From: a virus
Taxonomy: Duplodnaviria; Caudoviricetes
Strand: one strand, 5' to 3'
IMG/VR virus record: IMGVR_UViG_3300020129_000348
Location: 1-51,461 of that record
Length of the DNA: 51,461 nt
Shown: one piece after another, positions 6,178 through 40,454 of the stretch
How positions within the stretch are numbered: the first letter of the stretch is position 1
Layout of the letters: every line of letters begins with the position of its first letter
Notes under the pieces: generated by a model
What the model was told of the DNA's origin: nothing
Seen by the model: the letters and a program-made list of their open reading frames with translations, nothing else
The model's database searches: none
Translations under genes and position numbers: made by a program

Positions 6178-7887
6178 TCAGTTCGCCTGACTCTGCTGAA
6201 GTTGAACCCACTCAGGGTAAGTAAAGATCTCTTCGAGAAACTGAACGTACTTTGGTTTCTTCTTCGGCTCATTCGTATTGGGTAACGAGAAGGCTTGTAG
6301 TTGAGACCAGAGATGAGATTTGCGGATGAGTTGGTCGAAGGACTGCATACCCTCCTGCCGCATGCTGTTGTACAGTGTCATACCTTCGTTTGTAACGGCT
6401 CCACCGTCAATGAGCATTCGCTGAAGTAGTGCTGCGAAGGAGTAGCCGTCAAGCCCCATTTGGTTCGGATCGTGGAAGTGAGCAAGGAAAGACTTCTCTA
6501 TCCAGTCAACGAACATTTGATCGTTCTGCTCTTTCGTCAGTGCCGGCCGAGCGTTTGTCTGTGGTTGCGCGACGGCGGGCTGAGGCTGCTGTGCTTCCCG
6601 AAGTACATTCTCGGTTGACTTCGGTTCGCCGCCTTTGAACATCACGACAGCGTTGTAGAAAATTGAATTCAATAAACCAAGTCCAGTTGTGAGAATGGCC
6701 GGGTTCTCGGCAATCGACTTTCCCAAGGTTTTGAGTAGCGACGGCTCGGCGGGTTCCTCACGTTCCGGTTCCCGGTTGCGGCGCGAGAATCCCATTAGTT
6801 CAGCGAAACGTTTTACCTTTTCCATCTCAGCCATTGCGGAGTCGATGCCGTTCGGATTAACGACCGGAGCCGGCTGTTCAGATGCCTTGATTGCCCGTTC
6901 GCGCCAGAATTCCTTTTCCTCTCTCGCGTTCGCCAACAGCACGTCGTGCATCTTGGATTGCGAGTCCATCATCGTTTTCGCAAGTTCGATGTACTGGATT
7001 CCCGCCGAGTCGTTCGACTTTAGTTTTTCCGCGAGTCCCACCGCACTGTTCAGCATTTCAATCGGGTTGAAGGACTTCGCCGATTCGCGCGACATCGCGT
7101 CCACTTGCTTACTCACCATACCGAGACCGACATCCAGAATTTTCAGTGTTGCATCCTGAACCATCGTGTTCGGCGGTTCTTTTGTTTCATCGTTGCGGTC
7201 GCCCAACTTATCAAGCAACTCCATATTCTTTTCGGTCAGGCGCTCGTTGTTTTCAGCGAGACTTTGTACGGCAGCGGCAGCTACGCTCATTTCTTCCTCT
7301 TGTGCTTTCTCGGCGGCTTGTCCCGCCGGGTCGTCAAACGGCAATCGCTTACCCTTCGCCCGGAGTCCTGAAATGTAACCGGCGTTGTCAGGATGTCCAG
7401 CGACTAAAATATTCGGATCGACCAATGGCGGATAGGCTTCGTCCTCAAGCGAGAACCGGGTCATGGAGATCATTCCAGGCACGCCCATCTCCGTCACCAT
7501 CAGTTTGTATTTGCCGGAGCCGCCCCATTCCGGCTGGCTCAAAAAAAACTCTTCACAGTTCAGAGCGGTGAATGGGAAATCCTCTTGGAATTCCTTTAAA
7601 AGTTTCGGTCGATGCTCTCCAATCAGTTCTTTGTTGATGACGGGCCACTCCCGATACGCATGGACCTGCGCCTTGCCCCGCTGTTCTTCGTTGAAACCGT
7701 CAATCCAGGCGAAAAACTTCTCGGGTGTCGTTTTTGCGGCCGGAGGTTTCGGTAGAATCGTCTTCCCGCGCAGTTTCGCGCCAAGTTTCGCGGCCTTCTT
7801 GCGCGCCTGTGGCGTATCCTGAGGCTGTTTCGAGTAGCCAGCGGCTACGTCGACCGGCGTTGCGGTCTCGTAATCTGGTTTTGACAT
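6178..7887 (-). CDS. Large hypothetical protein with coiled-coil middle, divergent from structural operon
   Basis: ~570 aa ORF; no motif recognised. Confidence 0.85.
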   Translation of the reverse strand: MSKPDYETATPVDVAAGYSKQPQDTPQARKKAAKLGAKLRGKTILPKPPAAKTTPEKFFAWIDGFNEEQRGKAQVHAYREWPVINKELIGEHRPKLLKEFQEDFPFTALNCEEFFLSQPEWGGSGKYKLMVTEMGVPGMISMTRFSLEDEAYPPLVDPNILVAGHPDNAGYISGLRAKGKRLPFDDPAGQAAEKAQEEEMSVAAAAVQSLAENNERLTEKNMELLDKLGDRNDETKEPPNTMVQDATLKILDVGLGMVSKQVDAMSRESAKSFNPIEMLNSAVGLAEKLKSNDSAGIQYIELAKTMMDSQSKMHDVLLANAREEKEFWRERAIKASEQPAPVVNPNGIDSAMAEMEKVKRFAELMGFSRRNREPEREEPAEPSLLKTLGKSIAENPAILTTGLGLLNSIFYNAVVMFKGGEPKSTENVLREAQQPQPAVAQPQTNARPALTKEQNDQMFVDWIEKSFLAHFHDPNQMGLDGYSFAALLQRMLIDGGAVTNEGMTLYNSMRQEGMQSFDQLIRKSHLWSQLQAFSLPNTNEPKKKPKYVQFLEEIFTYPEWVQLQQSQAN

Positions 7888-7916
7888 CCGAACTTTACTA
7901 TACATATAACAAGTGC

Positions 7917-15306: not shown

Positions 15307-15635
15307 GAGTTTCCCTCGGTCAGTATCCCGATCAAACCTGCTTCGACGCAAACCGGGCAGGCTGGCTGCCGTATTGGATCGACAACCTCACTGAAAACAA
15401 ATGCCGGATGAATCTGATTATCTCCGGCAACACAACCGGCAACATTGCGCAACCGGGCGATCCGAGTGCAGACCCGTCAACAATCCGAAACGCACAGGTG
15501 GCCTGCATCTCAACTGGGGGAAAGTGGGACCCAGACTTAAACGTCTGCGCTCCGAGCTTCATGTCCCAATACGGTCTACAGATCGGCCTCGGAGTAGCGG
15601 CTGTATTCCTAATTTTGATGGTGACGAGGAAATAA
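15303..15635 (+). CDS. Putative virion membrane protein (MRVSLG start, C-terminal TM)
   Basis: Same N-terminus as 12270 ORF. Confidence 0.75.
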   Translation: MRVSLGQYPDQTCFDANRAGWLPYWIDNLTENKCRMNLIISGNTTGNIAQPGDPSADPSTIRNAQVACISTGGKWDPDLNVCAPSFMSQYGLQIGLGVAAVFLILMVTRK

Positions 15636-16072
15636 TGAGAGTTCATCGCGGTCACATTGCCGAATTCGTACACGCCAAGACGATGTTTTTTTACAACCCA
15701 TTCACAGGAACGTCGGGTTATGCACTGCCTGGACTGGGCGAATTCGTGCCAGGAAAAACGCTCTTCCCCTACAACCCGATTCGCGAAGGCATTGCGCGCG
15801 CGGGACTCGGGGAATTCGTCCACGGCAAAACACTTTTCCCGTATAACCCTATCCGAGAAGGACTCTCAGGCTGTAGCGGCGGTTGCGGATGCGGCGGAAA
15901 GTGCGGTGGAATGGGGGACATCTCAACCACGATCAGTGATGCGTGGACATCACTCAACTCACACATGATCATTGGGATGCCCTTAGGTTATCTTGCGGCT
16001 GGTGCGGTTGCTGGAGCGGCTGTTGTCTTGTTGTGGCCCTCTGGCAGCGGAAAGGGACGGAGACGCCGCTGA
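15635..16072 (+). CDS. Putative virion membrane protein with internal peptide repeats
   Basis: 2x GLGEFV(P/H)GKTLFPYNPIREG, CSGGCGCGGKC, terminal TM. Confidence 0.8.
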   Translation: MRVHRGHIAEFVHAKTMFFYNPFTGTSGYALPGLGEFVPGKTLFPYNPIREGIARAGLGEFVHGKTLFPYNPIREGLSGCSGGCGCGGKCGGMGDISTTISDAWTSLNSHMIIGMPLGYLAAGAVAGAAVVLLWPSGSGKGRRRR

Positions 16073-17664
16073 AACGTGCAAATAATCTTTTCGGCTTCGG
16101 GAGTAAGACTACTGTTCACAAGCAGCGTGGACAGTCTCGCCGCGACGTTGCGCGAATCGCTGAGTCTGCCGGCCGGAAATCAGGCGACACTCACCAATTT
16201 AAAGCCTGGAGCGTTCGCTATAAATCCTGGGGACCGGAAGCTCTTAAAGAATTCGAGCGGGCCTATCGCAAGGGAGTCGAGACGGGTGAAAGCGTTGCGG
16301 AGCGTAAACGCGTTGAGAAGCGCGGAAAGGAGGTTTCGAGCGAGGTAGCCGAAGACGTAGTGAACGCACTTGCAGGTTTGGGTATGAGCGTGAGAGAAGC
16401 CAAACAGCAAGTCAAGCGTCACGAGCGGGCGGGGGATTCATTCGATACGTTGTTCAAAAAGGTCATGCAGCGGAACCCAATTACAATCCGGCCAACTAAG
16501 ATCAACGTTAACCCTAGCCTATTAGGAACCCGGCATGGACGGGAAAGTGAATACAGGCAGTCCAAAATCTACCAGGCAGGACATTTACTGGGGATCAAAG
16601 ACCGACGCTCTAAACATGCCCATCGTGGCGACCGTTGGCTGATCGATGAAGCGGATCGACGTTTTCCTGATGTTGCTCCCGCATACAGGATCGCCTTCAG
16701 GCAGGGATATAATTTTGGCTTTGAGAAAACTTCGTCTAATCCCAAAGGTGGGAAGTTCGACCGTTGCGTGACGAAGGTTTCCAAGTCCTGCACCGCAAGC
16801 CCCTACGCGGTCTGTCAAAAAACAGTTGGCCGTGGGAATCCCGTTCACATTGCCACGCTCAAGGCCGGAAGTGCCGAAGCGCAAGTAAAGCAAGTCGGTG
16901 CGCACAAGTTCACCGTGGACATCAAAAAGGGGACGTACTCTACGCATCAGGACTTCGATGGCTTGCCAGTTGCGATGGCATGGGCTAGACTCAGGCTCCA
17001 CGAAGTGATGTTCCGTCCAAATCCAAAGACTGGACGTGCGAACCCAATCGGCGCGGCAGAGCGAGTCTACGAAGAATTCCACGGATTCCCGTCAAAGGAA
17101 GTACTTGAGTACACTTCTCAGGAGTACTTCCACTCGGTCACGGTTGGAGTGGGACAGCTCGTGTGTATCGACGTGGTTCTCCCTGAGAACGGTAAGTCAG
17201 TTCCGCTGATCGCAAAAGGCTTCCGCTTCGACCCTGAGAAATTCTTACCGTTGAAGGTCCGTTATTCCAAAGAAGCTGAAGCTGCCGATGCAAGTTGGAT
17301 CTTCGAACCCAAAACTTCGCTTGCCGATGTAGTGCAAGTGACTTGCTCTGAGGACCGCCGTCAGCTTTTCTTCCACGGCGGCGACCAATCGCTACCAACA
17401 GAACGAATCGGACTGACCAAGGCAGACGAGCATGATCACATGCTGATCGGAACGATTGTCAACTTGACCTACCGGACTCGCAAGAGCTTCGAAGGCAAAG
17501 ACGAGAAAGATTTCCACCACGAGTTTGGGAAAGAAGGATCGCGCGGTATATGTCCCGTGTTACTCTACTTTCCTAGATCCAAGAGTATGAAGGTAGCCGG
17601 GGGACGGTACTACATCGCTCCTCCGAGAAGAGACATTGGCGCAAGCCCTGGGATTACAGGATGA
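16069..17664 (+). CDS. Large basic modular protein with NP motifs and RuvA-C-like segment; probable CTG start
   Basis: Long ORF; CTGA overlap with upstream stop; six xNP junctions. Confidence 0.75.
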   Translation: MKRANNLFGFGSKTTVHKQRGQSRRDVARIAESAGRKSGDTHQFKAWSVRYKSWGPEALKEFERAYRKGVETGESVAERKRVEKRGKEVSSEVAEDVVNALAGLGMSVREAKQQVKRHERAGDSFDTLFKKVMQRNPITIRPTKINVNPSLLGTRHGRESEYRQSKIYQAGHLLGIKDRRSKHAHRGDRWLIDEADRRFPDVAPAYRIAFRQGYNFGFEKTSSNPKGGKFDRCVTKVSKSCTASPYAVCQKTVGRGNPVHIATLKAGSAEAQVKQVGAHKFTVDIKKGTYSTHQDFDGLPVAMAWARLRLHEVMFRPNPKTGRANPIGAAERVYEEFHGFPSKEVLEYTSQEYFHSVTVGVGQLVCIDVVLPENGKSVPLIAKGFRFDPEKFLPLKVRYSKEAEAADASWIFEPKTSLADVVQVTCSEDRRQLFFHGGDQSLPTERIGLTKADEHDHMLIGTIVNLTYRTRKSFEGKDEKDFHHEFGKEGSRGICPVLLYFPRSKSMKVAGGRYYIAPPRRDIGASPGITG

Positions 17665-18791
17665 GATTCAACTTTTACAGCCATCCGACATTCGAGCCGT
17701 GGGACTGGACTAATCCTGACCGCGTTGGGATTGGAGGATCAGAGACATCGCATATTGAAATGGCGCGCCGGCTTGCGGCCCGTGGTCATGTTGTTACATC
17801 ATGGGCGCCAATACCGGAATACCGTTCAGGCGTCAATGAAGGCGTGTTGTGGCTGCATTCCCAGTTCGCTTCCGACCGTGGACACTTCAGCGATGAGAGT
17901 GTTTACTCAGATGGAATATGGGTCATCTATCGTCAACCTGCCGTGATCGACGAGATTTTAACTGACCGTCCAATCTGGTTAGTCTGCCAAGACGTAGACT
18001 ACGTTCGCCCAGAGAATAATCTGACGCCAGAGCGGTGCGCCAAGCTCACACGCATCATCGCGTTGTGCGAAACGCACGCTCAATACTTGCGCAATCGCTA
18101 TCCCTACACGGCGGATAAAGTATTCGTCTCGTCGAACGGCATCAAGAGTGAACTAATCTCTCAGCTTCTCGAGAATCCACCCGAGCGCAATCTGCGACGT
18201 TTGATGTACGCCAGCTCCCCAGATCGAGGAATGGAATACCTGCTCTCCATTTTCCCAAGGGCAAAGGAAATTGTTCCGGACCTGGAACTCCACGTGTTCT
18301 ACGGCTTCGACAACATCGACAAGGTAGTGAAGCACTACGGCGAGGATTCGCGCGTCGGACAAAACACAAGACGGCTGAAAGAACTCCTCAATCAACCCGG
18401 CGTCACATGGCATGGACGCACCGGACAACCCGTACTCCTGCAGGAGTGGCTCAAATCGGGAATCTGGTGCCATCCGTCGAACTTCACCGAAACATCGTGT
18501 ATCACGTGCATGGACGCGCAAGCCTGTGGAGCAATCCCGATCACCTGTCCAACCTGGGCGGTGTCTGAGAACGTAAAGCATGGCGTCTTTATCGACGGCA
18601 ACTTGAAAAACGAAGTGGTTCGATCTCGTTACGTGCTGGAACTCATCCGGATGGCGCTCGACCCTCAGAGACAAGAATCAATCCGCCAAGAGATGATGCC
18701 CTGGGCGCTGGAAGCATTCGGCTGGGAACTGTTCGTCGATCAGTGGATTGGTTGGGCGCGTCACGACATGAAAGTCGAGGTCGCGGCATGA
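17661..18791 (+). CDS. GT-B (GT4-like) glycosyltransferase
   Basis: GIGGSE, SSNGI, YASSPDRG, ETSCITCMDAQACG. Confidence 0.9.
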   Translation: MRFNFYSHPTFEPWDWTNPDRVGIGGSETSHIEMARRLAARGHVVTSWAPIPEYRSGVNEGVLWLHSQFASDRGHFSDESVYSDGIWVIYRQPAVIDEILTDRPIWLVCQDVDYVRPENNLTPERCAKLTRIIALCETHAQYLRNRYPYTADKVFVSSNGIKSELISQLLENPPERNLRRLMYASSPDRGMEYLLSIFPRAKEIVPDLELHVFYGFDNIDKVVKHYGEDSRVGQNTRRLKELLNQPGVTWHGRTGQPVLLQEWLKSGIWCHPSNFTETSCITCMDAQACGAIPITCPTWAVSENVKHGVFIDGNLKNEVVRSRYVLELIRMALDPQRQESIRQEMMPWALEAFGWELFVDQWIGWARHDMKVEVAA

Positions 18792-19336
18792 ACTTTGAAA
18801 CGACAGTGTACCGCGATCAGTTCAGTTTTCAACGTCTCTATGCGAAAGGGAAAGTGTTGAATGTCGGCTCAAACACAGACGGAGCAGGATTCGCCCAAAC
18901 AGGAGGAGTCAACGTCGACTTATTCGCGACCGATAATCATACCGGGCTACCATTGCCTATACATATCTTCGCAGACGCCCGTTCGCTTCCGTTCAAACGA
19001 GTTTTTGACTCAGTGGTACTTGGTGAAATCCTAGAGCACATGGAACACGATGACGCGGTGAAAGCACTCAGCCAGGCGCGGACTGCAATGAAACATGGCG
19101 GCCGAGTCGTCATTACCATGCCCCACGATCACCGCAGGGACGAGGGACGCGAAACAGAACCTCCGATCACACCAGAAAACAAGTGGTACGCGCCGGGAAT
19201 CTTCGCCTATCATCACCGCTGTATTTCACGGAAAGAACTATTCAGTTGGATCTGTGAAGCCGGTCTCAACGTGTTGAACTACGCGCGAATTGCCTACGTA
19301 TGGGGTGAGGTTGGAACTGGAGTTGTCGCATGCTGA
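18788..19336 (+). CDS. Class I SAM-dependent methyltransferase
   Basis: VLNVGSNTDG...FDSVVLGEILEH. Confidence 0.85.
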   Translation: MNFETTVYRDQFSFQRLYAKGKVLNVGSNTDGAGFAQTGGVNVDLFATDNHTGLPLPIHIFADARSLPFKRVFDSVVLGEILEHMEHDDAVKALSQARTAMKHGGRVVITMPHDHRRDEGRETEPPITPENKWYAPGIFAYHHRCISRKELFSWICEAGLNVLNYARIAYVWGEVGTGVVAC

Positions 19337-20028
19337 CCCATCAGAAACTCATCGGTACGATCGGCTACATGGGTGGGGTGATGAGCTTACCGGAACCGTT
19401 CGCTTGGTCTTGGGGAAACATGCTCTCTTACACCAAAGAAGCATTGTGCCAGCCGAACGAGCATGTACTCGCAGAGAAAACGAAGCTCAGCTTGCACGAC
19501 TGGGCACGAAACGAGCTCGTGTCCAGAATGCAGGGAGACTGGCTACTGATGTTCGACACTGACGTCGCCTTTGAGCCGGACATGGCCGCACGTCTCGTGA
19601 TGACCATGACACGGTATGACGTGGACGTACTCACGGGGATTTACTGCTATAAGTCGCCTCCGCACTTTCCAGTGTTGTACGTCTGGAATCCGGAGACTGA
19701 AAAACACGAGACGATTGCCAAGTGGCCGCGGAACCAGGATCTGATTCCAGTCAGTTCAGCCGGCGGCGGTTGCCTGCTTGTTCGCCGTCGAGTCTTTGAA
19801 CGCATCACGTCGGAACTGAACGAAAATCCGTTTGACCGCTATCCGGGCAAGGGCGAGGATCACTCGTTCTTCATGCGACTCAGAAAGCTGGGAATCAAAC
19901 CGGCCTGCGCTTGGAAGATTGAAATGCAGCACTTGGAGTATGTCGGCCTCACGCCGTCGCAGAATTACATTGAACCGGAAGAAGGTTCACACGAGTTTGA
20001 AATGGAAGGTTTTGCAATAGCCCGTTAA
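19330..20028 (+). CDS. GT-A (GT2-like) glycosyltransferase
   Basis: WLLMFDTD, GGGCLLVRR, GEDHSF. Confidence 0.85.
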   Translation: MLTHQKLIGTIGYMGGVMSLPEPFAWSWGNMLSYTKEALCQPNEHVLAEKTKLSLHDWARNELVSRMQGDWLLMFDTDVAFEPDMAARLVMTMTRYDVDVLTGIYCYKSPPHFPVLYVWNPETEKHETIAKWPRNQDLIPVSSAGGGCLLVRRRVFERITSELNENPFDRYPGKGEDHSFFMRLRKLGIKPACAWKIEMQHLEYVGLTPSQNYIEPEEGSHEFEMEGFAIAR

Positions 20029-20644: not shown

Positions 20645-20664
20645 GCTTTCTGTAAGGAGATTTG

Positions 20665-21387
20665 ATGTACGTAGGCAGAACGACCTCAGTTGTAAACCCG
20701 AAAGGGTCCCGCGCCGCTCCCCGGCGCAAACCGTCTGGGAACCCAGCGTGGATGCTCACGCTTGGTCCGATGAATCCAAAAAGGAGAAGTAACGTGCCAA
20801 AAGCAAAGCGCAAAGGCAAGAAAAAAAGCGCGTATCGGGCCACGTCAGTATCCCGTGCGCAAAACCATAAAGGAAAAACCAAGAGCATGTCCATCACGCC
20901 CGGGCGATTGATGGCTCTCATGGGCAAGAAGAAGAGCAAGGGCCATCGCCGGCGCGGAGCGGGGAATCCGATTGCGAAGTCAATCACTCTCGCACGCCCC
21001 GCGAGTATCGGCAAGGCAGCCGCTGGAATTCTGGTAGGCGTCGGACTTAACAAAGCCGCCGTCTCCATGCTTCCGGACGGGATCAAGGGCAACAACCTCT
21101 ACGCATTCCTCGCGTCGGTCGGAATTGCTCTGGGTGAATGGTGGCTGCTGAGTATGGTGGACGGGGAATTCGGAGCCGCGGCGGGTCTCGGTGGAATCGC
21201 CGAAGCCGGCTCGATCGGTCTGAACAACTGGCTACCCGCAATTGGAAGCCATGTTTCGCTCGGAGAATTCGTGCCGGGCAAGACGTTGTTCCCGTACAAC
21301 CCAATCCGTGAGGGAGCTGGCCCCTACAAGCCCAGTGGCGAACGACGCTTCGCCTATCCGGGAGCCTATCAAGTTTCGGCTGCGTAA
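20665..21387 (+). CDS. Basic NP-motif membrane protein preceding the capsid gene
   Basis: K/R-rich N-terminus with four NP motifs, TM segments, SLGEFVPGKTLFPYNPIREG. Confidence 0.8.
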   Translation: MYVGRTTSVVNPKGSRAAPRRKPSGNPAWMLTLGPMNPKRRSNVPKAKRKGKKKSAYRATSVSRAQNHKGKTKSMSITPGRLMALMGKKKSKGHRRRGAGNPIAKSITLARPASIGKAAAGILVGVGLNKAAVSMLPDGIKGNNLYAFLASVGIALGEWWLLSMVDGEFGAAAGLGGIAEAGSIGLNNWLPAIGSHVSLGEFVPGKTLFPYNPIREGAGPYKPSGERRFAYPGAYQVSAA

Positions 21388-21421: not shown

Positions 21422-22114
21422 ATGAATCAGTCACAGCAAATCGCACAAGCAGCCGGTCAACAAGCTCTCGCGCGGATGGCCGATCAAGCGGTCGCAACGC
21501 AAGTCGCGGCGGAAGCAATCACGGCCAAGCAAATGTACATCGTCAACCAATTCCGGGGACAGATCTACATTTCAGACACCCTCGACGTTCAGGACACACC
21601 GGTCTACGACACACTCACGTTCGCGGCCGGCACGACCATCTCACTCACCAACAACATCTGGTTCACCAACGTAGAGCAAGGAAGCGGCAAATCCTTGGCT
21701 CAAACGAACATGACCCAGAACGGAAAACTCGACGCGCCGGAAGCAATCGCAGTTCTCGGCGTCCGAGTCGGCATCAACGAAGAAGCTCTTCGCTCGGATC
21801 TGACCACTCTTTTCAACGGCTGGGCCTATCAGCTCTCCCTGGGAAAGAAGCCGTATCAGCTTGCGAACCTTCGCCACTTCTCGTCCGGTTGGGGACTCTT
21901 CGGAACCACCACCCGCACAAGCGAATCAATTTACACCAACGGCTACCCGTCGCGAGGCTCGATGAACCTTTTGGAAATCAACCTCGTCATCGCAAACCAG
22001 ATGAGTTTCAACGCTCAACTGGTCGGCAACACTTCGCAAGTCGTCTCTTCGTCCGGGCCGGGACTCATTCTGTTGAATGAACTCGTCGGCCTGTATGCGC
22101 GAGGCGTGCAGTAA
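21422..22114 (+). CDS. Putative major capsid protein (single jelly-roll-like)
   Basis: VYDT...WF...TNM-x-Q-x-G-x-L pattern, beta-rich, followed by terminator; fold is inferred. Confidence 0.55.
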   Translation: MNQSQQIAQAAGQQALARMADQAVATQVAAEAITAKQMYIVNQFRGQIYISDTLDVQDTPVYDTLTFAAGTTISLTNNIWFTNVEQGSGKSLAQTNMTQNGKLDAPEAIAVLGVRVGINEEALRSDLTTLFNGWAYQLSLGKKPYQLANLRHFSSGWGLFGTTTRTSESIYTNGYPSRGSMNLLEINLVIANQMSFNAQLVGNTSQVVSSSGPGLILLNELVGLYARGVQ

Positions 22115-22154: not shown

Positions 22155-22210
22155 GCATGGGGCAGGTTACTCTCCTCCGAGTCTGCCCCTGCATTTTACT
22201 TTTTCTTTTT
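22155..22210 (+). terminator. Rho-independent terminator candidate
   Basis: GCATGGGGCAG/CTGCCCCTGC stem followed by T-rich run. Confidence 0.6.
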
Positions 22211-22212
22211 AT

Positions 22213-22788
22213 GTTGGCGCTCTTCTCACTTTCGGTTCGTCGGTTGATCCTCAATGCCGTTCGCGCTATGAGGCAGGCATTCGAAGATCAACAGGCCATT
22301 CTTGGTTACTCCGCATTGTCGATAACCGGCCTTCAGAAAGCATCGGCCAGGATCGCGCTTGTGGCGTACCTTCTTGGGGTCAACGTAGGTGTACAGGCGT
22401 TCGCCGGGCCAGCGTTGCCATGCAATCTCGTTCGCCAACCGGATGAGTTCGCTCGACCGTCCCGAAGTACTGCCTTCGTTTCGGAAGACCGCACAATTAA
22501 CGCCAACCTGTCCATTGTCGCTTTTGAATTTGCGCCACGCGAACAGCGCACGTGCATCAGGAGTCAGCAGAAGCGTTTTCTCGCCAGGGCCAACCAACTG
22601 GAATATTTTACGGAAGGCACGCGCCGTGTAGTGCCGCTTGAACAGCGACATTGCAGTCGTGTTGCCATCGCGGATCGGAATCCAGCCGACGCCAAACAGA
22701 AATGGCTGTTCACTCATCAGTACCACTCTTGCCCAGCGCACGCACGAAAGCAAGGTCCGTTTAGCACAGTACTGAGACAAGCGCCAAC
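22213..22788 (-). mobile_element. Cassette C1 (inverted ends), cargo Mom/GNAT-like gene
   Basis: GTTGGCGCTCTTCTC...GTTCGCGC left; GCGCACGCAC...GAGACAAGCGCCAAC right. Confidence 0.85.
22226..22717 (-). CDS. Mom-like/GNAT-fold phage protein
   Basis: RHY...NCAVFRNE...SSELI...LYTYVD...GRCFLKAGY; function inferred. Confidence 0.6.
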   Translation of the reverse strand: MSEQPFLFGVGWIPIRDGNTTAMSLFKRHYTARAFRKIFQLVGPGEKTLLLTPDARALFAWRKFKSDNGQVGVNCAVFRNEGSTSGRSSELIRLANEIAWQRWPGERLYTYVDPKKVRHKRDPGRCFLKAGYRQCGVTKNGLLIFECLPHSANGIEDQPTNRK

Positions 22789-22807
22789 GACATAAAGAGG
22801 AACCTAA

Positions 22808-23257
22808 ATGCAATACACTATGAATCAGTACTCACCAAGCTATCTTCAAGGGGTCAACCCCGCTCCGTCGTCCGAAATCGGATTCGAGCCACGGCCCTAC
22901 ACTTACCTGTACTCACCGGCGAATGGTCAACTCACGGCTTTGCAGGTTGTAAACCAGGACTCGGTTGCAATTCAGACTGACGCTGATTTTCTACTGTTCG
23001 GCTTCTATCTTTCACAGTTCACCGGCGCATTTCAAATCCTGTTGACCGATGCAACCGGCTACCAACTGTTCAGCGGGTTCATGAACTCGGGAGCGATTTC
23101 ACAGTCAAGTGCTGATCCGACTGTATTCAGCCCTTCTCACCCATTTCCAGCAGGAGGAAAGATTCTGATTTCAATCCAGGACCTCTCGAATGCGACGAAC
23201 CCACTTCAGATTGCTTTCGTGGGCGAGAAGATGTTCCGGGTTAAACTCAATCAGTAG
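22808..23257 (+). CDS. Putative small jelly-roll capsid protein
   Basis: IQTDADF...PFPAGGKI...DLS...IAFVGEK beta pattern. Confidence 0.55.
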   Translation: MQYTMNQYSPSYLQGVNPAPSSEIGFEPRPYTYLYSPANGQLTALQVVNQDSVAIQTDADFLLFGFYLSQFTGAFQILLTDATGYQLFSGFMNSGAISQSSADPTVFSPSHPFPAGGKILISIQDLSNATNPLQIAFVGEKMFRVKLNQ

Positions 23258-36913: not shown

Positions 36914-37501
36914 CTATCGAATCACCGAAGCCCCAAATGTCTGAGAGGCCGGATCAACCGCACCGCCGGATAAATTACACAGTCTCACCTGTACTGTATT
37001 CGCAGCACTGACCAGCATTGTCCCAAATAAACCAGTCTCAAGAGTAGAGGGCCAATCAGGAGCCAGGGAATCGCCCGTTACGGCGCCAGTCAGAGTGAAG
37101 GTGTTTGCAAGGCACGTTCCGTCCGCGATCGACGCGAAGTCGATTGTAGCCGTTGCCTTGATAATCGTTGCTGAGCCGGAGGTCCCGCACGAGAAGGCTT
37201 GCGTTGAATTGTTGTAGTTGAGATGGTTTCCGCCAGAATCGGTGCAGGCCGGAAGAGTTTCCCAAGCCGAGACCGCCGCCGCCGTTGTCACGAGCACTTG
37301 ATTCGCCGCGGAATTCACCGGTACGGTCGTACCGTTGATCTTTCCTACCACCGTTGCATTCTGGGAGCCTGTGACATCCCCTGCTAGCGTGATGGGCACC
37401 TGAATCGTTCCGGCCCATAGCACACAGGCGCAAATTACCAATGTAATGACGATCTTCCACCAGATGCGTTCGGGTGGGAGTTCTTCCGGTTTCCGTTTCA
37501 T
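36914..37501 (-). CDS. Putative fibre/spike protein with N-terminal TM
   Basis: LAGDVTG, VSAANTVQVRL motifs; start reassigned to ATGA overlap. Confidence 0.75.
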   Translation of the reverse strand: MKRKPEELPPERIWWKIVITLVICACVLWAGTIQVPITLAGDVTGSQNATVVGKINGTTVPVNSAANQVLVTTAAAVSAWETLPACTDSGGNHLNYNNSTQAFSCGTSGSATIIKATATIDFASIADGTCLANTFTLTGAVTGDSLAPDWPSTLETGLFGTMLVSAANTVQVRLCNLSGGAVDPASQTFGASVIR

Positions 37502-37860
37502 AGACCGTCGACAACTATTAGTAAATCTCCAGCCTGAAACTTCCGCCGGTAGATTTGGGCAAGGATAACACATCCATCGGAAGCGAGACCCGGATGCGCT
37601 GCGGAATCTCCATGGATGAAAAATCCGGAGCGCCCGAATACATCGCCGCGCGGAGTCAATGGAATCGCGAGCGGTCCGAGTCTGGGATGAGTAAGCGCTT
37701 CCCCAATTGTCCATTCACCGCGAGGAATCGGCCCTGTGTTATGGAAACTCTCCATCGCGGGATTCATTCGTCCATCGTCTCGTCCGGAGTAACCAGCGCC
37801 AACAATAGAGTGGGAGCGGTCCCGTAGATTACCAGTCGTCTGTTCGTAAATCCAATTCAT
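37498..37860 (-). CDS. Tlde1/DUF2778-like (L,D-transpeptidase fold) cell-wall enzyme
   Basis: GPIPRG...GRSGFFIHGD...ASDGC. Confidence 0.85.
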   Translation of the reverse strand: MNWIYEQTTGNLRDRSHSIVGAGYSGRDDGRMNPAMESFHNTGPIPRGEWTIGEALTHPRLGPLAIPLTPRGDVFGRSGFFIHGDSAAHPGLASDGCVILAQIYRRKFQAGDLLIVVDGL

Positions 37861-38060
37861 CGCCGCCGCATCCTTTCCCGCATGAGGGCGAACTTTCCCT
37901 CCAGCGGCCGATATCTACGCTTGCTCGGCGGCACGTACACGGGAATACGAATACGCGTCAAGTCGCGCGTCAGCCGCAGCGGCATTATGTCGAGATGCTG
38001 CAGAACGGATTGACTGTGCGCCGGCACTCCGGAACGTGCGGGGATAATAGCTATATGCAT
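37857..38060 (-). CDS. Small basic protein
   Basis: ATGA coupled. Confidence 0.5.
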   Translation of the reverse strand: MHIAIIPARSGVPAHSQSVLQHLDIMPLRLTRDLTRIRIPVYVPPSKRRYRPLEGKFALMRERMRRR

Positions 38061-38061
38061 G

Positions 38062-38292
38062 TCACTTATGACACCCTTGACATTGCTTCAAGCCGGCAGC
38101 ACTTTTCATCGAAGGCCGAAAGCAAGAGTTGCTTCCGATCATGACCGATTGCCCTTCAAAACTGTAGATCGGCGGATCGAAACAAACAACCGAATGCAGA
38201 CTATCTCGCTTAGGCGAAAGCTGCACGTTGCGGAAGAGACATCCTGTTGTCAGCATGCACAGACCCACCAATAATGCAATCGTGGTTCGCAT
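38062..38292 (-). CDS. Small Cys-rich lipoprotein-like protein
   Basis: MRTTIALLVGLCMLTTGC; TGATG coupling. Confidence 0.55.
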   Translation of the reverse strand: MRTTIALLVGLCMLTTGCLFRNVQLSPKRDSLHSVVCFDPPIYSFEGQSVMIGSNSCFRPSMKSAAGLKQCQGCHK

Positions 38293-39209
38293 CAGTATTG
38301 CGCGATTACCGCCGTGCCGTGAACTGCGACTCCGGACGCCATGTTGTAACAGAGAGCTTTTCCGGCCGGAACTACCCAAGTCGATTCCGGGCCAAGGTTA
38401 TTTGAGTAAGCGAGAACATTTGAAAGCAGTCCCGTAAGATCCGTCGCACCAGTCGCGCAATTTGACCCCGTTCCATATTGCATCTTGAAGTTCACTGTAT
38501 TTCCCGAAGTATCAGGTGTGAATTCAAAGGCGCATACGCGGATCACGGTTGAACCAGAAGCGGCTACAATCTGAGTATTGCCGGTTGCCGACGCTGTAAA
38601 CGGGACAGTTGTAGTGCAATTCTGGAACGGCAGGACATTGCCGGATCCGTCGACCGAAGCCATAAGCACTGGAGGTTTTGTAGGCGCCGCGCCCGTCGCG
38701 TCAGGCCCATCTACAACACACGGAGTTCCCGAAGTCCCAGGGCAGGGAGTTCCACCGCCGCCCGAACTCGATATCGTCCCCGCATCATCTCGGAAGCCAT
38801 TCAGTGTTCCGGTTATGAGACCAGTTCCAGTGTGAGATGCTAGGCGTACTCTCATCCACGGGAAGTAGCCAGTGAACTTAGTGGAGGCTGAAGTTATCGA
38901 GGTGTTCGGATTAATCCCCGTTCCGACGATTGAGCCGGCGAACGTGACAAAGGTTCCCGGAGATCCTGAGGAATCAGGAGCGTCCTCAACTACCAAAGAA
39001 ATTGCAGAGTAGCCGGTTGACGAATAATCCAGTTTCCAATTCGGACACGGCACTCCTGTGTTTGGTGAACTTGCCAAGTTGTTGTAGGAGTTCGTGACTA
39101 GATTTGCATTGTTGATTGCGAAGGGTATTTGGCAGTCTGGGGCTACTTTTGTTTGCGACTGCCCCCACAGTTCTATTGTCAAGACGATCAGCAACAGGAT
39201 ACTTTTCAT
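38292..39209 (-). CDS. Beta-rich putative virion protein with Sec-type signal peptide
   Basis: MKSILLLIVLTIELWG-Q; S/T/G-rich. Confidence 0.75.
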   Translation of the reverse strand: MKSILLLIVLTIELWGQSQTKVAPDCQIPFAINNANLVTNSYNNLASSPNTGVPCPNWKLDYSSTGYSAISLVVEDAPDSSGSPGTFVTFAGSIVGTGINPNTSITSASTKFTGYFPWMRVRLASHTGTGLITGTLNGFRDDAGTISSSGGGGTPCPGTSGTPCVVDGPDATGAAPTKPPVLMASVDGSGNVLPFQNCTTTVPFTASATGNTQIVAASGSTVIRVCAFEFTPDTSGNTVNFKMQYGTGSNCATGATDLTGLLSNVLAYSNNLGPESTWVVPAGKALCYNMASGVAVHGTAVIAQY

Positions 39210-39535
39210 ACGTTGGCGCTCTTCTCGGCTATAGAGAACAGGTTGCGACTCTCAAACGTTCGCGCTATGAAGCCCTGACTGTCGTTCGGTAACGATATTG
39301 CATGTCCAGGCGCGACGGTTACCGTGTTGTAGAGCGGCGTGTCCTGCACGTCGAGATCATCAGAAATGTAGATTTGCCCTGTGAATTGCTGGATGATGAA
39401 CAACTGTTTGTCTGTGATGCACTGCGCCGCAATCTCAAGAGAACTTGGCGGTGGAGCAACAGGGGCCGGAATAAACCGTTTCAGTCCGAACAGCGCGGCA
39501 AGCGTAGCGAAGAATCCACGGCGAGTTAGTCCCAT
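39206..39535 (-). CDS. Twin-arginine-signal protein containing a capsid-protein fragment (C8 cargo)
   Basis: TRRGFF N-terminus; residues 35-84 match residues 28-77 of 21422..22114 (32/50 identical, counted by hand). Confidence 0.75.
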   Translation of the reverse strand: MGLTRRGFFATLAALFGLKRFIPAPVAPPPSSLEIAAQCITDKQLFIIQQFTGQIYISDDLDVQDTPLYNTVTVAPGHAISLPNDSQGFIARTFESRNLFSIAEKSANV

Positions 39536-39951
39536 CAGTACTCATCCTCGTTTCGATAACTACGAATCGACAGCGGACGCGCAGCGGGAGTTCCGTCAAT
39601 GCTCGGTAGTAAGTCACGAACGGTTTGCTCGTCAACTGGTGTGATGGAGTAGATTGCCGGAAGTCCGAAGTATCGCGTAAAGCCGACGCGCACTACTTTG
39701 CCGCCCTTCAACAGATCGGGAACATCGACACGAAAGAGCACGCCACTTCCAAAGGTCTGCTGGGAGAGAAAGCCGACGATCCGCTGGTGTCCGAAGAGTT
39801 CAACGAGTGCCCATGATTTCAACTCAGGTGCCGAGGGCCGCTCGTTTGGCTCAACGATCAACGCTTGCGGGTTCGTTCGCTTCACATCAGCCTCATTTGC
39901 GCGAACGCAAGGTGGGCCTGGCCGCGAGAGATTGCCGAGAGGAGCGCCGAC
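39212..39951 (-). mobile_element. Cassette C8 (inverted ends), two cargo genes
   Basis: GTTGGCGCTCTTCTC...GTTCGCGCTAT left; GCCTCATTTGCGCGAAC...GAGAGGAGCGCCGAC right. Confidence 0.9.
39535..39885 (-). CDS. Hypothetical phage protein (C8 cargo)
   Basis: WALVELFGHQRIVG...FRVDVP...AIYSITP. Confidence 0.75.
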   Translation of the reverse strand: MKRTNPQALIVEPNERPSAPELKSWALVELFGHQRIVGFLSQQTFGSGVLFRVDVPDLLKGGKVVRVGFTRYFGLPAIYSITPVDEQTVRDLLPSIDGTPAARPLSIRSYRNEDEY

Positions 39952-39994
39952 ATAAAAGAACCGTATCTATAGTACTACTCCATCTAAGGTACCG

Positions 39995-40023
39995 TTGACA
40001 AGCCTTTTCTTAGGCTCTAATCT
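39995..40023 (+). promoter_or_regulatory. sigma70 promoter, probably leaderless transcript
   Basis: TTGACA-N17-TAATCT, 7 nt before ATG 40031. Confidence 0.7.
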
Positions 40024-40030
40024 TGTGGGC

Positions 40031-40360
40031 ATGGCAAATGCAATTATAAAGTACGGAGACGACGGGGGAACCTTCGCGGTCGTTTTGCCGGACGGGGAAG
40101 AAACGGACGCACTAGATCTAGACCTGAACGGGATTACACTTCTCGACGATGAATCGGATCCGAGCGCCCCCGGCTTTCTCGTGTTGACATCGGCCTACGG
40201 AGGCGGACTCAAACCAAACACAGTCTATCAGCTTACAGCGCTGGATACGGACGTTGAAACCGACGTTGACCTTGACTATGACGACGAATCGGACGAGGAA
40301 GAGTACGAATCGGACGACGAGGACGAAGACGACGAAGAAGCCGAGGAAGCCGAAGCGTGA
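40031..40360 (+). CDS. Highly acidic small protein
   Basis: D/E-rich throughout, long acidic tail. Confidence 0.8.
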   Translation: MANAIIKYGDDGGTFAVVLPDGEETDALDLDLNGITLLDDESDPSAPGFLVLTSAYGGGLKPNTVYQLTALDTDVETDVDLDYDDESDEEEYESDDEDEDDEEAEEAEA

Positions 40361-40454
40361 CACGCGAACCACTGACGCCCGCAACTCCGCTTGAACTCGC
40401 TGAACGAGCCAAATGTCCAGCTTGCCGCGAAGGACGTTGGCACACCGAAGCTGA

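What the first reader, a model, noticed from the sequence alone, without database searches (positions are those of the whole stretch)
39206..39535. Cassette cargo is a Tat-type signal fused to a fragment of the virus's own putative capsid protein
Seen: IAAQCITDKQLFIIQQFTGQIYISDDLDVQDTPLYNTVTVAPGHAISLPN aligns without gaps to VAAEAITAKQMYIVNQFRGQIYISDTLDVQDTPVYDTLTFAAGTTISLTN of 21422..22114 (32/50 identical by hand, many substitutions conservative). It is preceded by MGLTRRGFFATLAALFGL, and homology stops just before the cassette end. Inference: captured from a related virus's capsid gene. It could act as a membrane-tethered decoy, an assembly nucleator or a dominant-negative inhibitor of competing viruses, and it suggests that cassettes sample viral DNA.
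Basis: partly seen in the sequence, partly recalled or inferred. Interest (0 to 1): 0.75.

Follow-up and report, generated by a model that had tools for sequence, protein, structure and literature searches.

The report
Export-tagged copies of capsid protein pieces
A small gene in this soil virus joins an export-type leader to a piece of the virus's own shell protein, and the same design recurs in many unrelated soil phages, which points to an undescribed kind of viral gene whose function is still unknown.

Summary
ORF 39206-39535(-), 109 aa, starts with a twin-arginine-type leader. Its residues 26-85 match residues 19-78 of ORF 21422-22114 (33/60 identical, E 5e-22). The match ends 15 nt before an intergenic repeat.

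The 230-aa parent is the most conserved gene of a family of roughly 49-63 kb uncultured soil viruses. It folds as a single jelly roll (pLDDT 92.9). Its four best matches among 48,161 solved chains are capsid proteins of membrane-containing viruses, with middling scores (Z 7.7-6.6).

The ORF is not a one-off. Six more short proteins join a twin-arginine leader to the same capsid segment. A related leader heads 71 small ORFs in 75 viral contigs. In 9 of those 71, the variable tail matches the phage's own Pfam-confirmed capsid gene. One orthologous pair gives dN/dS 0.07.

My best reading is an accessory, exported or membrane-targeted capsid mimic. What it binds and what it does are inferred, not shown. 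Capture from another virus is not shown. 'Cassettes sample viral DNA' is not supported. Six literature searches found no description.

The parts
39206..39535 (-). Chimeric small gene, 109 aa: leader, capsid-derived segment and repeat-encoded tail
   Evidence: ORF list. It is the only protein of 59-191 aa of its kind in the 5.8-billion-protein search. Its ATG overlaps the stop of the upstream ORF (TGATG).
39461..39535 (-). Leader, aa 1-25: T-R-R-G-F-F at aa 4-9 (nt 39509-39526), then an 11-residue hydrophobic stretch, then K-R
   Evidence: Read from the sequence. No hit to PF10518 or TIGR01409 at E<=10. Leaders of the same type head P0198, P0219, P0187, P0270 and P0280.
39281..39460 (-). Capsid-derived segment, aa 26-85, homologous to residues 19-78 of the 230-aa protein
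   Evidence: BLASTP 33/60, E 5e-22. It keeps 18 of the 20 positions that are invariant in 38 full-length relatives (invariants, compared by hand). pN 0.21-0.27 against pS 0.70-0.78 versus the parent.
39206..39280 (-). Tail, aa 86-109 plus stop, with no similarity to the parent; its last ~19 residues and the stop lie inside the repeat
39199..39265 (-). Copy of the two-box intergenic repeat (box GAGAAGAGCGCCAAC at 39212-39226). It overlaps the 3' end of the ORF and lies just upstream of the ATG of the next gene (39209).
   Evidence: Repeat families D2 and I18. Pattern count: 38 copies at up to 3 mismatches against 1.85 expected.
39535..39885 (-). Upstream, translationally coupled 116-aa ORF of unknown function; it forms the two-gene unit with the 109-aa ORF
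   Evidence: phrog_29525, E 4.8e-7, function unknown. No homologue in 5 complete relatives or in any fetched locus.
39881..39957 (+). Repeat copy at the other end of the two-gene unit, oriented towards the plus-strand genes that follow
   Evidence: Families D18, I5, I6, I8 and I9; box at 39937-39951.
21422..22114 (+). Parent gene: 230-aa protein with a single-jelly-roll fold, probably the major capsid protein. The copied part is nt 21476-21655.
   Evidence: 207 proteins at E<=0.001, the best 120 listed at 60-99% identity, on contigs up to 63 kb. Model pLDDT 92.9. Best structural matches are SPV1, HCIV-1, HHIV-2 and P23-77 capsid proteins, Z 7.7-6.6.

Best explanation
ORF 39206-39535(-) is a real accessory gene. 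It belongs to a wider class of small viral genes, undescribed as far as I could find, that join a twin-arginine (Tat-type) leader to a piece of the virus's own major capsid protein.

In this window the piece is the second half of the capsid protein's N-terminal helix, the family's near-invariant GQIYISDxLDVQDTPxYDT stretch, and the first beta strands of the jelly roll. A piece like this cannot fold alone.

Proposed mechanism (inferred): the gene is co-translated with the 116-aa ORF upstream. The leader takes the unfolded peptide to the Tat machinery or the cytoplasmic membrane. The capsid-derived segment then acts as a molecular mimic. It competes with the genuine capsid protein for whatever normally grips that segment. 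That partner could be a neighbouring capsid subunit of this or a related virus, or a host protein that senses capsid protein. Either way the partner is held at, or carried across, the membrane.

Only 1 of 6 complete genomes of this virus family carries the gene, and the capsid-derived parts of the class vary widely. I therefore think it serves conflict (a decoy against capsid-sensing host immunity, or interference between related viruses) rather than routine assembly.

Shown: the chimeric architecture, its recurrence, the capsid origin of the tails, and purifying selection in one tailed-phage orthologue pair. Inferred: export, binding and the biological role.
For: 1. Homology to the parent gene: 33/60 identical, E 5e-22.

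2. The parent has a capsid-like fold. The model has pLDDT 92.9. The top 4 of 48,161 chains are single-jelly-roll capsid proteins: SPV1 Z 7.7 over 145 aa, HCIV-1 6.8, HHIV-2 6.7, P23-77 VP17 6.6. Foldseek gives SPV1 2.3e-3 and SH1 2.9e-3. It is the most conserved ORF against 5 relatives, at 63-70%.

3. The architecture recurs in the same virus family. P0198, P0219, P0270, P0187 and P0280 each have RRxF[FL], a hydrophobic stretch, and the same capsid segment. P0269 has a hydrophobic N-terminus plus that segment.

4. The leader of P0187, P0270 and P0280 (RRGxLG...DPERALWxPGxK) heads 71 distinct small ORFs in 75 IMG/VR loci. Of these, 65/71 carry RRxF[LF] and 68/71 a small-x-small motif before DPE. 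22/71 match Pfam TAT_signal at E<=1, best 1.7e-4.

5. In 9 of the 71, the variable tail matches a larger ORF on the same contig that Pfam calls a capsid protein. Five are strong (E<1e-5): L027, L030, L041, L058, L103. Four are weak (E 0.001-0.006): L061, L077, L099, L110. Search. Pfam identities: PF25209 for one, PF11651 for eight. One tail also matches a portal (L099). One ORF matches PF20911, the GP7 capsid family, at 6.9e-6. The L030 tail hits annotated coat or capsid genes in 9 of 9 GenBank phage records found.

6. Selection. Orthologues L100/L103 give dS 0.40, dN 0.028, omega 0.07, and 0.085 in the capsid-derived part. L100/L080 give omega 0.26. For the window fragment against its parent, synonymous sites are saturated (pS 0.70-0.78) and pN is 0.21-0.27. 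It keeps 18/20 family-invariant residues but only 15/40 of the others.

7. It is accessory. 5 of 5 complete relatives have only the full-length gene.

8. The start codon overlaps the upstream ORF's stop.

9. The protein alone is predicted disordered: Atlas model pLDDT 0.33.
Against: This ORF does not match the Tat signal HMMs at E<=10. It has no AxA cleavage site and lacks the DPERLLW motif of the large class. Its hydrophobic stretch is only 11 residues.

No orthologue of this particular ORF was found, so selection on it cannot be measured directly. Low dN/dS against the parent could simply be inherited from a donor capsid gene. The direct selection evidence for the class rests on one close pair (L100/L103) and one more distant pair; other pairs gave omega 0.19-0.84 over the whole ORF.

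Only 9 of 71 class members show a detectable capsid match, and 4 of those are weak. G007 is a complete genome and showed none. Capsid identity of the 230-aa protein rests on middling Z scores below 8, and no terminase, portal or packaging ATPase was recognised.

In tailed phages these ORFs often sit beside portal and terminase genes: P22_portal in 11 and terminase families in 3+2+2 of the 119 neighbour ORFs. That fits a role in assembly at least as well as one in conflict.

If the peptide is exported it could not meet cytoplasmic capsid protein unless it binds before export. No expression data exist.
Confidence: 0.5

Rival explanations
1. It is a morphogenesis factor. The leader anchors the peptide in the membrane: the host membrane, or the internal membrane that viruses with this capsid fold carry. 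The capsid-like arm slots into the capsid lattice. The protein then links shell and membrane or nucleates assembly there.
For: The best structural relatives of the parent are capsid proteins of internal-membrane viruses. The copied part includes the N-terminal helix and first strands, which could make subunit contacts. In tailed phages the class sits next to portal and terminase genes (11 P22_portal and 3+2+2 terminase-family hits among 119 neighbour ORFs), so it is probably expressed with head genes.
Against: It is absent from 5 of 5 complete relatives that have the same capsid gene, so it cannot be essential for assembly. Tailed phages with the same gene class have no membrane. The hydrophobic stretches are 11-19 residues from RR to DPE, short for a membrane span and typical of cleaved signal peptides. 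68/71 carry a cleavage-type motif.
Confidence: 0.2
2. It is a non-functional by-product. An ectopic partial duplicate of the capsid gene was trapped between intergenic repeats and happens to be read through from an upstream start.
For: This genome is full of recombination-prone repeats (38 copies) and has other internal duplications (families D10 and D15). No orthologue is known. The tail is repeat-encoded. Tat HMMs are not matched.
Against: The part upstream of the homology is not capsid sequence but a twin-arginine leader. The same leader-plus-capsid-segment design occurs in six further proteins of this family and in tailed phages with other capsid families. The frame is kept over 60 codons although third positions are only 42% identical. 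18/20 invariant residues are retained. The start is coupled to the upstream ORF. One orthologue pair of the class gives omega 0.07.
Confidence: 0.1
3. It was recently captured from a competing related virus and is used as a dominant-negative poison of that competitor's capsid assembly.
For: At two positions (39 and 41 of the parent) the fragment carries the family consensus residue where its own genome's gene deviates. The best match is another virus's protein: P0008, 69% in 51 columns, against 63% for its own.
Against: The difference is 35 against 32 residues of 51, which is not significant. The fragment is further from all 120 full-length relatives (median 57%) than they are from each other (median 76%), so no donor has been sampled. 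An old duplication in this lineage fits equally well. A cytoplasmic poison needs no export leader.
Confidence: 0.15

Closest known systems
Twin-arginine (Tat) signal peptides (Pfam PF10518, NCBIfam TIGR01409)
   Same: An RRxF[FL] motif near the N-terminus, followed by a short, weakly hydrophobic Ala/Gly-rich stretch. In the wider class a small-x-small motif follows (65/71 and 68/71). 22/71 hit PF10518 at E<=1.
   Different: The window ORF itself gives no HMM hit and has no AxA site. The passenger is a roughly 60-residue non-folding fragment, whereas Tat is known for folded proteins (recalled knowledge). Export is untested.
Single-jelly-roll major capsid proteins of internal-membrane viruses (SPV1, HCIV-1, HHIV-2, SH1, P23-77)
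   Same: The parent protein's beta sandwich aligns with them best of all solved chains: Z 7.7-6.6 over 117-145 residues.
   Different: 5-9% sequence identity. Z is below 8. The genomes here are roughly 49-63 kb, far larger than those viruses as I recall them. No packaging ATPase or second capsid protein was identified here. This concerns the parent gene, not the fragment.
Capsid-derived restriction factors of animals (Fv1, enJS56A1; recalled, not tested here)
   Same: A gene derived from a viral capsid (gag) gene that works by interacting with capsid proteins.
   Different: Those are host genes from endogenous retroviruses, full-domain proteins without export leaders. Here the virus itself carries a short fragment behind a leader. 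The likeness is one of concept only.
T4 Gol peptide / Lit and other capsid-sensing bacterial defences such as CapRel (recalled, not tested here)
   Same: A short stretch of a major capsid protein is the element that a host protein recognises. A decoy would have to copy such a stretch.
   Different: No sensor is known for this host or virus. No decoy of this form has been described in the papers I searched.
Regulatory repeats that flank shuffled accessory genes in phages (T4-type promoter/stem-loop cassettes; start-associated sequences of cluster K mycobacteriophages; both recalled)
   Same: A conserved intergenic element sits at gene junctions and flanks accessory genes. In the window, a repeat-flanked insert separates two genes that are adjacent in a relative.
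   Different: The two-box sequence is different and lineage-specific. No recombination or promoter activity was tested. This concerns the 'cassette', not the cargo.

Membership tests
Tat signal peptide | Twin-arginine motif of the S/T-R-R-x-F-L-K type near the N-terminus (consensus recalled) | tested here: met
   T-R-R-G-F-F at residues 4-9.
Tat signal peptide | Match to the curated signal models PF10518 / TIGR01409 | tested here: not met
   No hit at E<=10 for the window ORF. P0270 scores 15.7 against a cut-off of 16.7. 22/71 of the related class hit PF10518 at E<=1, all below the 22.7-bit cut-off as far as shown.
Tat signal peptide | Hydrophobic region followed by a signal-peptidase site (small-x-small) | tested here: not met
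   The hydrophobic stretch FFATLAALFGL is present, but no usable AxA follows; the candidates are followed by Pro. In the DPERLLW class 68/71 have such a motif by a loose pattern.
Tat signal peptide | Export that depends on the Tat machinery | not testable with these tools
   Needs reporter fusions in wild-type and tat-mutant cells.
Single-jelly-roll major capsid protein (for the parent 21422-22114) | Eight-stranded jelly-roll fold like that of known capsid proteins | tested here: inconclusive
   High-confidence model. The top four matches are all such capsid proteins, but Z is 7.7-6.6, which the tool calls middling.
Single-jelly-roll major capsid protein (for the parent 21422-22114) | Presence in the virion shell | not testable with these tools
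   No isolate or proteome is available. Indirect support: it is the most conserved gene, and in tailed phages the copied gene is the Pfam-confirmed capsid gene.
Single-jelly-roll major capsid protein (for the parent 21422-22114) | Neighbouring second capsid protein and packaging ATPase, as in P23-77/SH1-type viruses (recalled) | tested here: inconclusive
   A conserved beta-rich 149-aa gene follows (22808-23257; adjacent in a relative), but it was not folded. No ATPase family was found by Pfam or PHROGs. A Walker A motif occurs in 6178-7905.
Leader-plus-capsid-fragment small ORFs (class defined in this report) | N-terminal RRxF[FL] leader | tested here: met
   compare.
Leader-plus-capsid-fragment small ORFs (class defined in this report) | C-terminal part homologous to a piece of the same genome's major capsid gene | tested here: met
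Leader-plus-capsid-fragment small ORFs (class defined in this report) | Conserved DPE[RL][AL]LWxPGxK motif after the leader | tested here: not met
   Absent from the window ORF, P0198 and P0219. Present in P0187, P0270, P0280 and all 71 IMG/VR ORFs, which were selected by that motif.
Integron-type gene cassette | Recombination site with imperfect inverted repeats, next to an integrase | not tested
   The flanking element has two direct boxes and occurs in both orientations. No integrase search of the window was made.

The most novel reading that the evidence does not exclude
Soil viruses of unrelated lineages (jelly-roll viruses and tailed phages with at least three capsid families) share a portable Tat-type leader module. 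They fuse it to short copies of their own capsid, and occasionally portal, proteins. The result is a general system of exported mimics of the conserved virion proteins that bacterial immune sensors or competing viruses recognise. The leader would carry the mimic, with whatever it has bound, to the Tat translocon or across the membrane as a 'hitchhiker', removing a sensor or a rival's subunits from the cytoplasm.
Probability: 0.2. Interest if true: 0.9.

Novelty: categorically new. Interest (0 to 1): 0.8.

Why it matters
If these genes work as mimics of capsid protein, they would be a new and apparently widespread class of viral accessory gene. They are built by a simple rule: a portable export-type leader plus a piece of the virus's own shell protein.

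The class would give a direct handle on three questions:
- which surfaces of capsid proteins are recognised by partners, host sensors or rivals;
- whether the Tat pathway is used by viruses to dispose of or relocate such partners;
- how uncultured soil viruses compete.

The work also characterises the parent gene family. It is a large group of roughly 49-63 kb soil viruses whose most conserved protein has the fold of capsid proteins of membrane-containing tailless viruses. The group has no relative among 50,697 GenBank phage records.

Tried and rejected
**Complex prediction.** The 230-aa protein with residues 24-109 of the ORF scored 0.00 in both runs. The tool's verdict was 'no answer'. I draw nothing from it.

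**Expression.** No RNA holder was listed for 38200-40400. Contigs of four soil DNA runs laid on the stretch were identical, apart from one variant inside the ORF at 39377. That variant is the third base of a Gly codon and is synonymous. It is too little to measure selection.

**Structure searches.**
- The first, shallow model (pLDDT 68) gave no Foldseek PDB match at E<=0.001. BFVD gave only unnamed or uncharacterised proteins.
- The Atlas search of the 109-aa ORF gave nothing above 0.9.
- The Atlas search of the 230-aa protein gave only sub-threshold leads to PM2 P2 and PRD1 P3 capsid families, 0.75-0.77.

**Family libraries.** Pfam and PHROGs gave no hit for the ORF or its parent.

**Homologue search.** The search for proteins of 59-191 aa found only the ORF itself.

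**Self-match test: misses and off-target rows.**
- No match in G007 (complete), G009 (30% complete) or G010 (19% complete).
- No capsid match in 11 loci from MAG contigs.
- Of the 19 hit rows, 10 fall on capsid ORFs and 1 on a portal. Three are internal duplicates in L079, and 5 fall on small or no frames (L029, L070, L073, L099, L110).

**Selection estimates.** Pairs with non-homologous tails gave omega near 1 in the tail (L058/L092, L074/L099). I take those as alignment artefacts, not as evidence.

**Promoter and terminator scan** of 38000-40300: nothing usable.

**Literature.** Six full-text searches listed nothing on leader-plus-capsid-fragment genes. I saw only titles and abstract starts and read no paper. 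Supplements were not consulted.

**GenBank phages.** No match for the ORF, the 230-aa protein or the L029 leader protein.

**Metagenome scan** with P0270 did not recover its own contig.

**Rejected ideas.**
- A split or intron-interrupted capsid gene. The capsid genes are full length by Pfam coverage.
- Silent cassettes for gene conversion. These would need neither a leader nor an open frame.
Full report
**1. The observation**

ORF 39206..39535 on the minus strand encodes 109 residues beginning MGLTRRGFFATLAALFGL. BLASTP against the 230-residue product of 21422..22114 gives 33/60 identities and 45/60 positives without gaps, E 5e-22. Residues 26-85 match residues 19-78.

The DNA arms 21506-21630 and 39306-39430 are 72% complementary.

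Similarity ends at residue 85 (nt 39281). From about nt 39265 the ORF runs into a copy of an intergenic repeat, which supplies its last residues and its stop.

In an all-against-all comparison of window ORFs, this is the only substantial paralogous pair.

**2. The parent gene**

Pfam and PHROGs do not know the 230-aa protein. It nevertheless has 207 relatives at E<=0.001. The 120 listed are 60-99% identical, mostly about 205-240 aa long, and many lie on contigs of 45-63 kb. A further 171 more distant cluster representatives exist.

The window is a whole IMG/VR virus record of 51,461 nt, rated 93% complete. Five relatives rated 94-100% complete are 49-63 kb. Against these five, the 230-aa protein is the most conserved ORF of the window, at 63-70%.

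A model built on 38 close sequences was mediocre (pLDDT 68). A model built on 141 diverse sequences is confident (pLDDT 92.9, pTM 0.80). It shows a 40-residue N-terminal helix followed by a beta sandwich.

Aligned against 48,161 solved chains, the four best matches are all single-jelly-roll capsid proteins of internal-membrane viruses:

| Match | Z | Aligned residues |
|---|---|---|
| SPV1 | 7.7 | 145 |
| HCIV-1 | 6.8 | 132 |
| HHIV-2 | 6.7 | 117 |
| P23-77 VP17 | 6.6 | 122 |

Foldseek lists SPV1 (2.3e-3) and SH1 (2.9e-3) among its first six. The tool calls such Z values middling, so I treat 'capsid protein' as probable, not proven.

No terminase, portal or packaging ATPase family was recognised among the 20 ORFs scanned. 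GenBank phages hold no relative.

**3. The ORF is not a one-off**

The exhaustive representative search with the 230-aa protein returned several short proteins that match only residues of about 14-76. Their sequences show the same design:

- P0198 (93 aa) and P0219 (99 aa) begin with M-x-RRQFFG, then a hydrophobic stretch, then the capsid segment.
- P0187 (183 aa), P0270 (146 aa) and P0280 (140 aa) have SRRG[LF]LG, a hydrophobic stretch, DPE[RL]ALWxPGxK, and the capsid segment.
- P0269 (77 aa) has a hydrophobic N-terminus and the segment.

P0187 and P0280 are 68% identical along their length, including a shared C-terminal motif. At least that subfamily is therefore inherited and conserved.

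None of the 5 complete relatives fetched whole has such an ORF, or the 116-aa gene upstream of it. The gene is accessory.

**4. The same leader in unrelated phages**

The leader of P0187, P0270 and P0280 was found in 75 IMG/VR loci, giving 71 distinct small ORFs.

- 65 of the 71 carry RRxF[LF].
- 68 carry a small-x-small motif just before DPE.
- The distance from RR to DPE is 11-19 residues. That is the size of a cleaved signal peptide, not of a membrane span.
- 22 of the 71 hit Pfam TAT_signal at E<=1, best 1.7e-4. This is the commonest family among them.

After the conserved ...PGxKxISIP, the sequences differ completely.

I searched each variable tail against its own contig, within 10 kb on each side, or against the whole record for five of them. 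Nine tails match a large ORF on the same contig.

Strong matches (E<1e-5):

| Locus | Match |
|---|---|
| L027 | 52-59% over 29-33 aa, E 5e-8 |
| L030 | 48-51% over 55-63 aa, E 1.5e-15 |
| L058 | 66% over 32 aa, E 3e-12 |
| L103 | 43% over 61 aa, E 8e-12 |
| L041 | E 5e-6 |

Weak matches (E 0.001-0.006): L061, L077, L099 and L110.

Pfam identifies every one of these nine target ORFs as a major capsid protein. One is PF25209 and eight are PF11651, all above the curated cut-offs.

- The L099 tail also matches the N-terminus of a P22-type portal (E 1.8e-5).
- One ORF matches the GP7 capsid family on its own (6.9e-6).
- The L030 tail hits genes annotated as coat or major capsid protein in 9 of the 9 GenBank phage records found.
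- The remaining rows are 3 internal duplicates in L079 and 5 weak hits to small or no frames.
- One complete genome (G007) and two fragments gave no self-match.

Nine of 71 is a lower bound, because most loci are partial and simple BLAST was used. The copied pieces are often the N-terminal arm, but in L041 and L103 they come from the middle of the protein.

**5. Are these genes under selection?**

Among tailed-phage orthologues, L100/L103 give dS 0.40, dN 0.028 and omega 0.07. The capsid-derived part alone gives 0.085 (22 synonymous against 7 non-synonymous differences). L100/L080 give 0.26. Other pairs gave omega 0.19-0.84 over the whole ORF, some with non-homologous tails.

For the window ORF no orthologue exists. 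Against its parent, third codon positions are 42% identical (pS 0.70-0.78, saturated) while pN is 0.21-0.27. The ORF keeps 18 of the 20 positions that are invariant in 38 full-length relatives, and 15 of the other 40.

That pattern fits continued constraint. It would also arise if a diverged capsid gene had been copied recently. The frame and the leader argue against decay.

The start codon overlaps the stop of the upstream 116-aa ORF, the usual sign of coupled translation. Four soil DNA runs hold the region unchanged, apart from one synonymous variant.

**6. Where did the fragment come from?**

In 51 fixed columns:

| Comparison | Identity |
|---|---|
| Fragment vs its own genome's gene | 63% |
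| Fragment vs 120 full-length relatives, median | 57% |
| Fragment vs best relative (P0008) | 69% |
| Relatives vs each other, median | 76% |

The fragment is thus an outlier with no sampled donor. 'Captured from a related virus' is neither supported nor excluded.

**7. Context**

The window carries 38 copies (up to 3 mismatches; 1.85 expected) of a two-box repeat, in both orientations and none between about 10 and 22 kb. The relatives have their own versions of it.

One copy overlaps the 3' end of the ORF. Another lies beyond the 116-aa ORF.

Elsewhere such copies flank an inserted gene. In a relative, the capsid gene is followed directly by the homologue of 22808-23257. In the window, a repeat-flanked minus-strand gene (22226-22813) sits between them. 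'Cassette' is therefore a fair description of how accessory genes are arranged. I found no sign that cassettes in general sample viral DNA.

In tailed phages, the immediate neighbours of the leader ORFs are most often P22-type portal genes (11 of 119 neighbour ORFs) and large terminase subunits (families with 3, 2 and 2).

**8. What it most likely does**

Shown:
- a chimeric gene with a twin-arginine-type leader and a piece of the virus's own probable capsid protein;
- recurrence of this design in one jelly-roll virus family and in tailed phages with three capsid Pfam families;
- purifying selection in one tailed-phage orthologue pair;
- patchy, accessory distribution.

Inferred: the leader directs the peptide to the Tat machinery or the membrane. 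The peptide is disordered on its own (Atlas model pLDDT 0.33). The capsid-derived part then mimics a surface of the capsid protein and competes for its partner.

I put about 0.5 on this general mechanism. Within it I cannot separate a decoy for capsid-sensing host defence from interference with related viruses. A role in the virus's own assembly is the main rival (0.2). Its support is the position beside portal and terminase genes, and the membrane-virus fold of the parent. An inert by-product seems unlikely (0.1).

Points against my reading:
- This ORF fails the Tat HMMs, lacks a cleavage site and lacks the DPERLLW motif.
- Only 9 of 71 class members show the capsid match, 4 of them weakly.
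- There is no expression or binding evidence. The complex prediction gave no verdict.

**9. Novelty**

Six full-text searches found no description of such genes (listings only). PHROGs and Pfam have no family for them. GenBank phages lack both the leader protein and the virus family.

The nearest concepts are Tat signal peptides, capsid-derived restriction factors of animals, and capsid-sensing bacterial defences. Those comparisons are recalled, not tested. I rate the class as new in kind, with its function open.

No earlier findings were used.

Noticed in passing
window, 38 sites, e.g. 3204, 6144, 22213, 23266, 32094, 35194, 39212, 42600, 44768, 49547: A two-box intergenic repeat (GCGCGAACG-type box, about 35-45 nt, then GAGAAGAGCGCCAAC) occurs 38 times at up to 3 mismatches against 1.85 expected. 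It occurs in both orientations, overlaps gene 3' ends and lies a few bases before the next start codon. It is absent from about 10-22 kb. Relatives carry their own lineage-specific versions (e.g. GGGGAACGACC with GTCGCCAAAC; CCTGGTCGAACG with GATGAGGCCAAA).
   Followed up: partly
window 22157-22813, compared with L146:775-2004: In a relative the capsid-like gene is followed directly by the homologue of 22808-23257. In the window a minus-strand gene (22226-22813), flanked by inverted repeat copies, sits between them. This is a clear case of a repeat-bounded insertion.
   Followed up: partly
window 1-51461 and G001-G005: The window represents a large family of uncultured soil viruses of about 49-63 kb. 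They have a jelly-roll capsid-like protein, three adjacent glycosyl- and methyltransferase genes (17661-20028) and a helicase-methylase (71-3250). No recognisable terminase or portal was found, and there is no relative among 50,697 GenBank phage records. They may be unusually large tailless membrane-containing viruses.
   Followed up: partly
window 15734-15861 and 21259-21314: A 19-residue motif (LGEFVPGKTLFPYNPIREG) is identical between ORF 15401-16072, which has two DNA copies of it, and the basic, membrane-like ORF 20662-21387 just upstream of the capsid-like gene.
   Followed up: no
window 37498-37860 (-): A 120-aa protein with a Tlde1 domain (PF10908, 37.2 bits; phrog_24118, 8.6e-31) lies in the same minus-strand block as the ORF, among predicted secreted proteins (38292-39209, 36914-37714). 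A Tlde1-domain gene also turned up once among the 119 neighbours of leader ORFs in other phages. It may be a cell-wall-acting lysis or entry enzyme.
   Followed up: no
L058:3187-3615, L092:2094-2573, L087:9581-10255: A second conserved subfamily of leader ORFs has a tail containing DQEYxLLVxRGRR and no detected parent gene. It sits next to a capsid-arm-bearing leader ORF in the same phages (L058:2654-2932, L092:545-817). So some phages carry two such genes.
   Followed up: no
L079:9172-10440: Two tandem, partly duplicated leader ORFs. A 28-residue stretch is 100% identical to part of a 590-aa ORF upstream that has no Pfam family. It looks like a very recent duplication or an assembly artefact.
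   Followed up: no
window 40272-40345: The acidic Asp/Glu-rich end of ORF 39995-40360 attracts many unrelated metagenome contigs when reads are laid (depth 14-46 against 0-9 elsewhere). This is a low-complexity effect, not real coverage.
   Followed up: no
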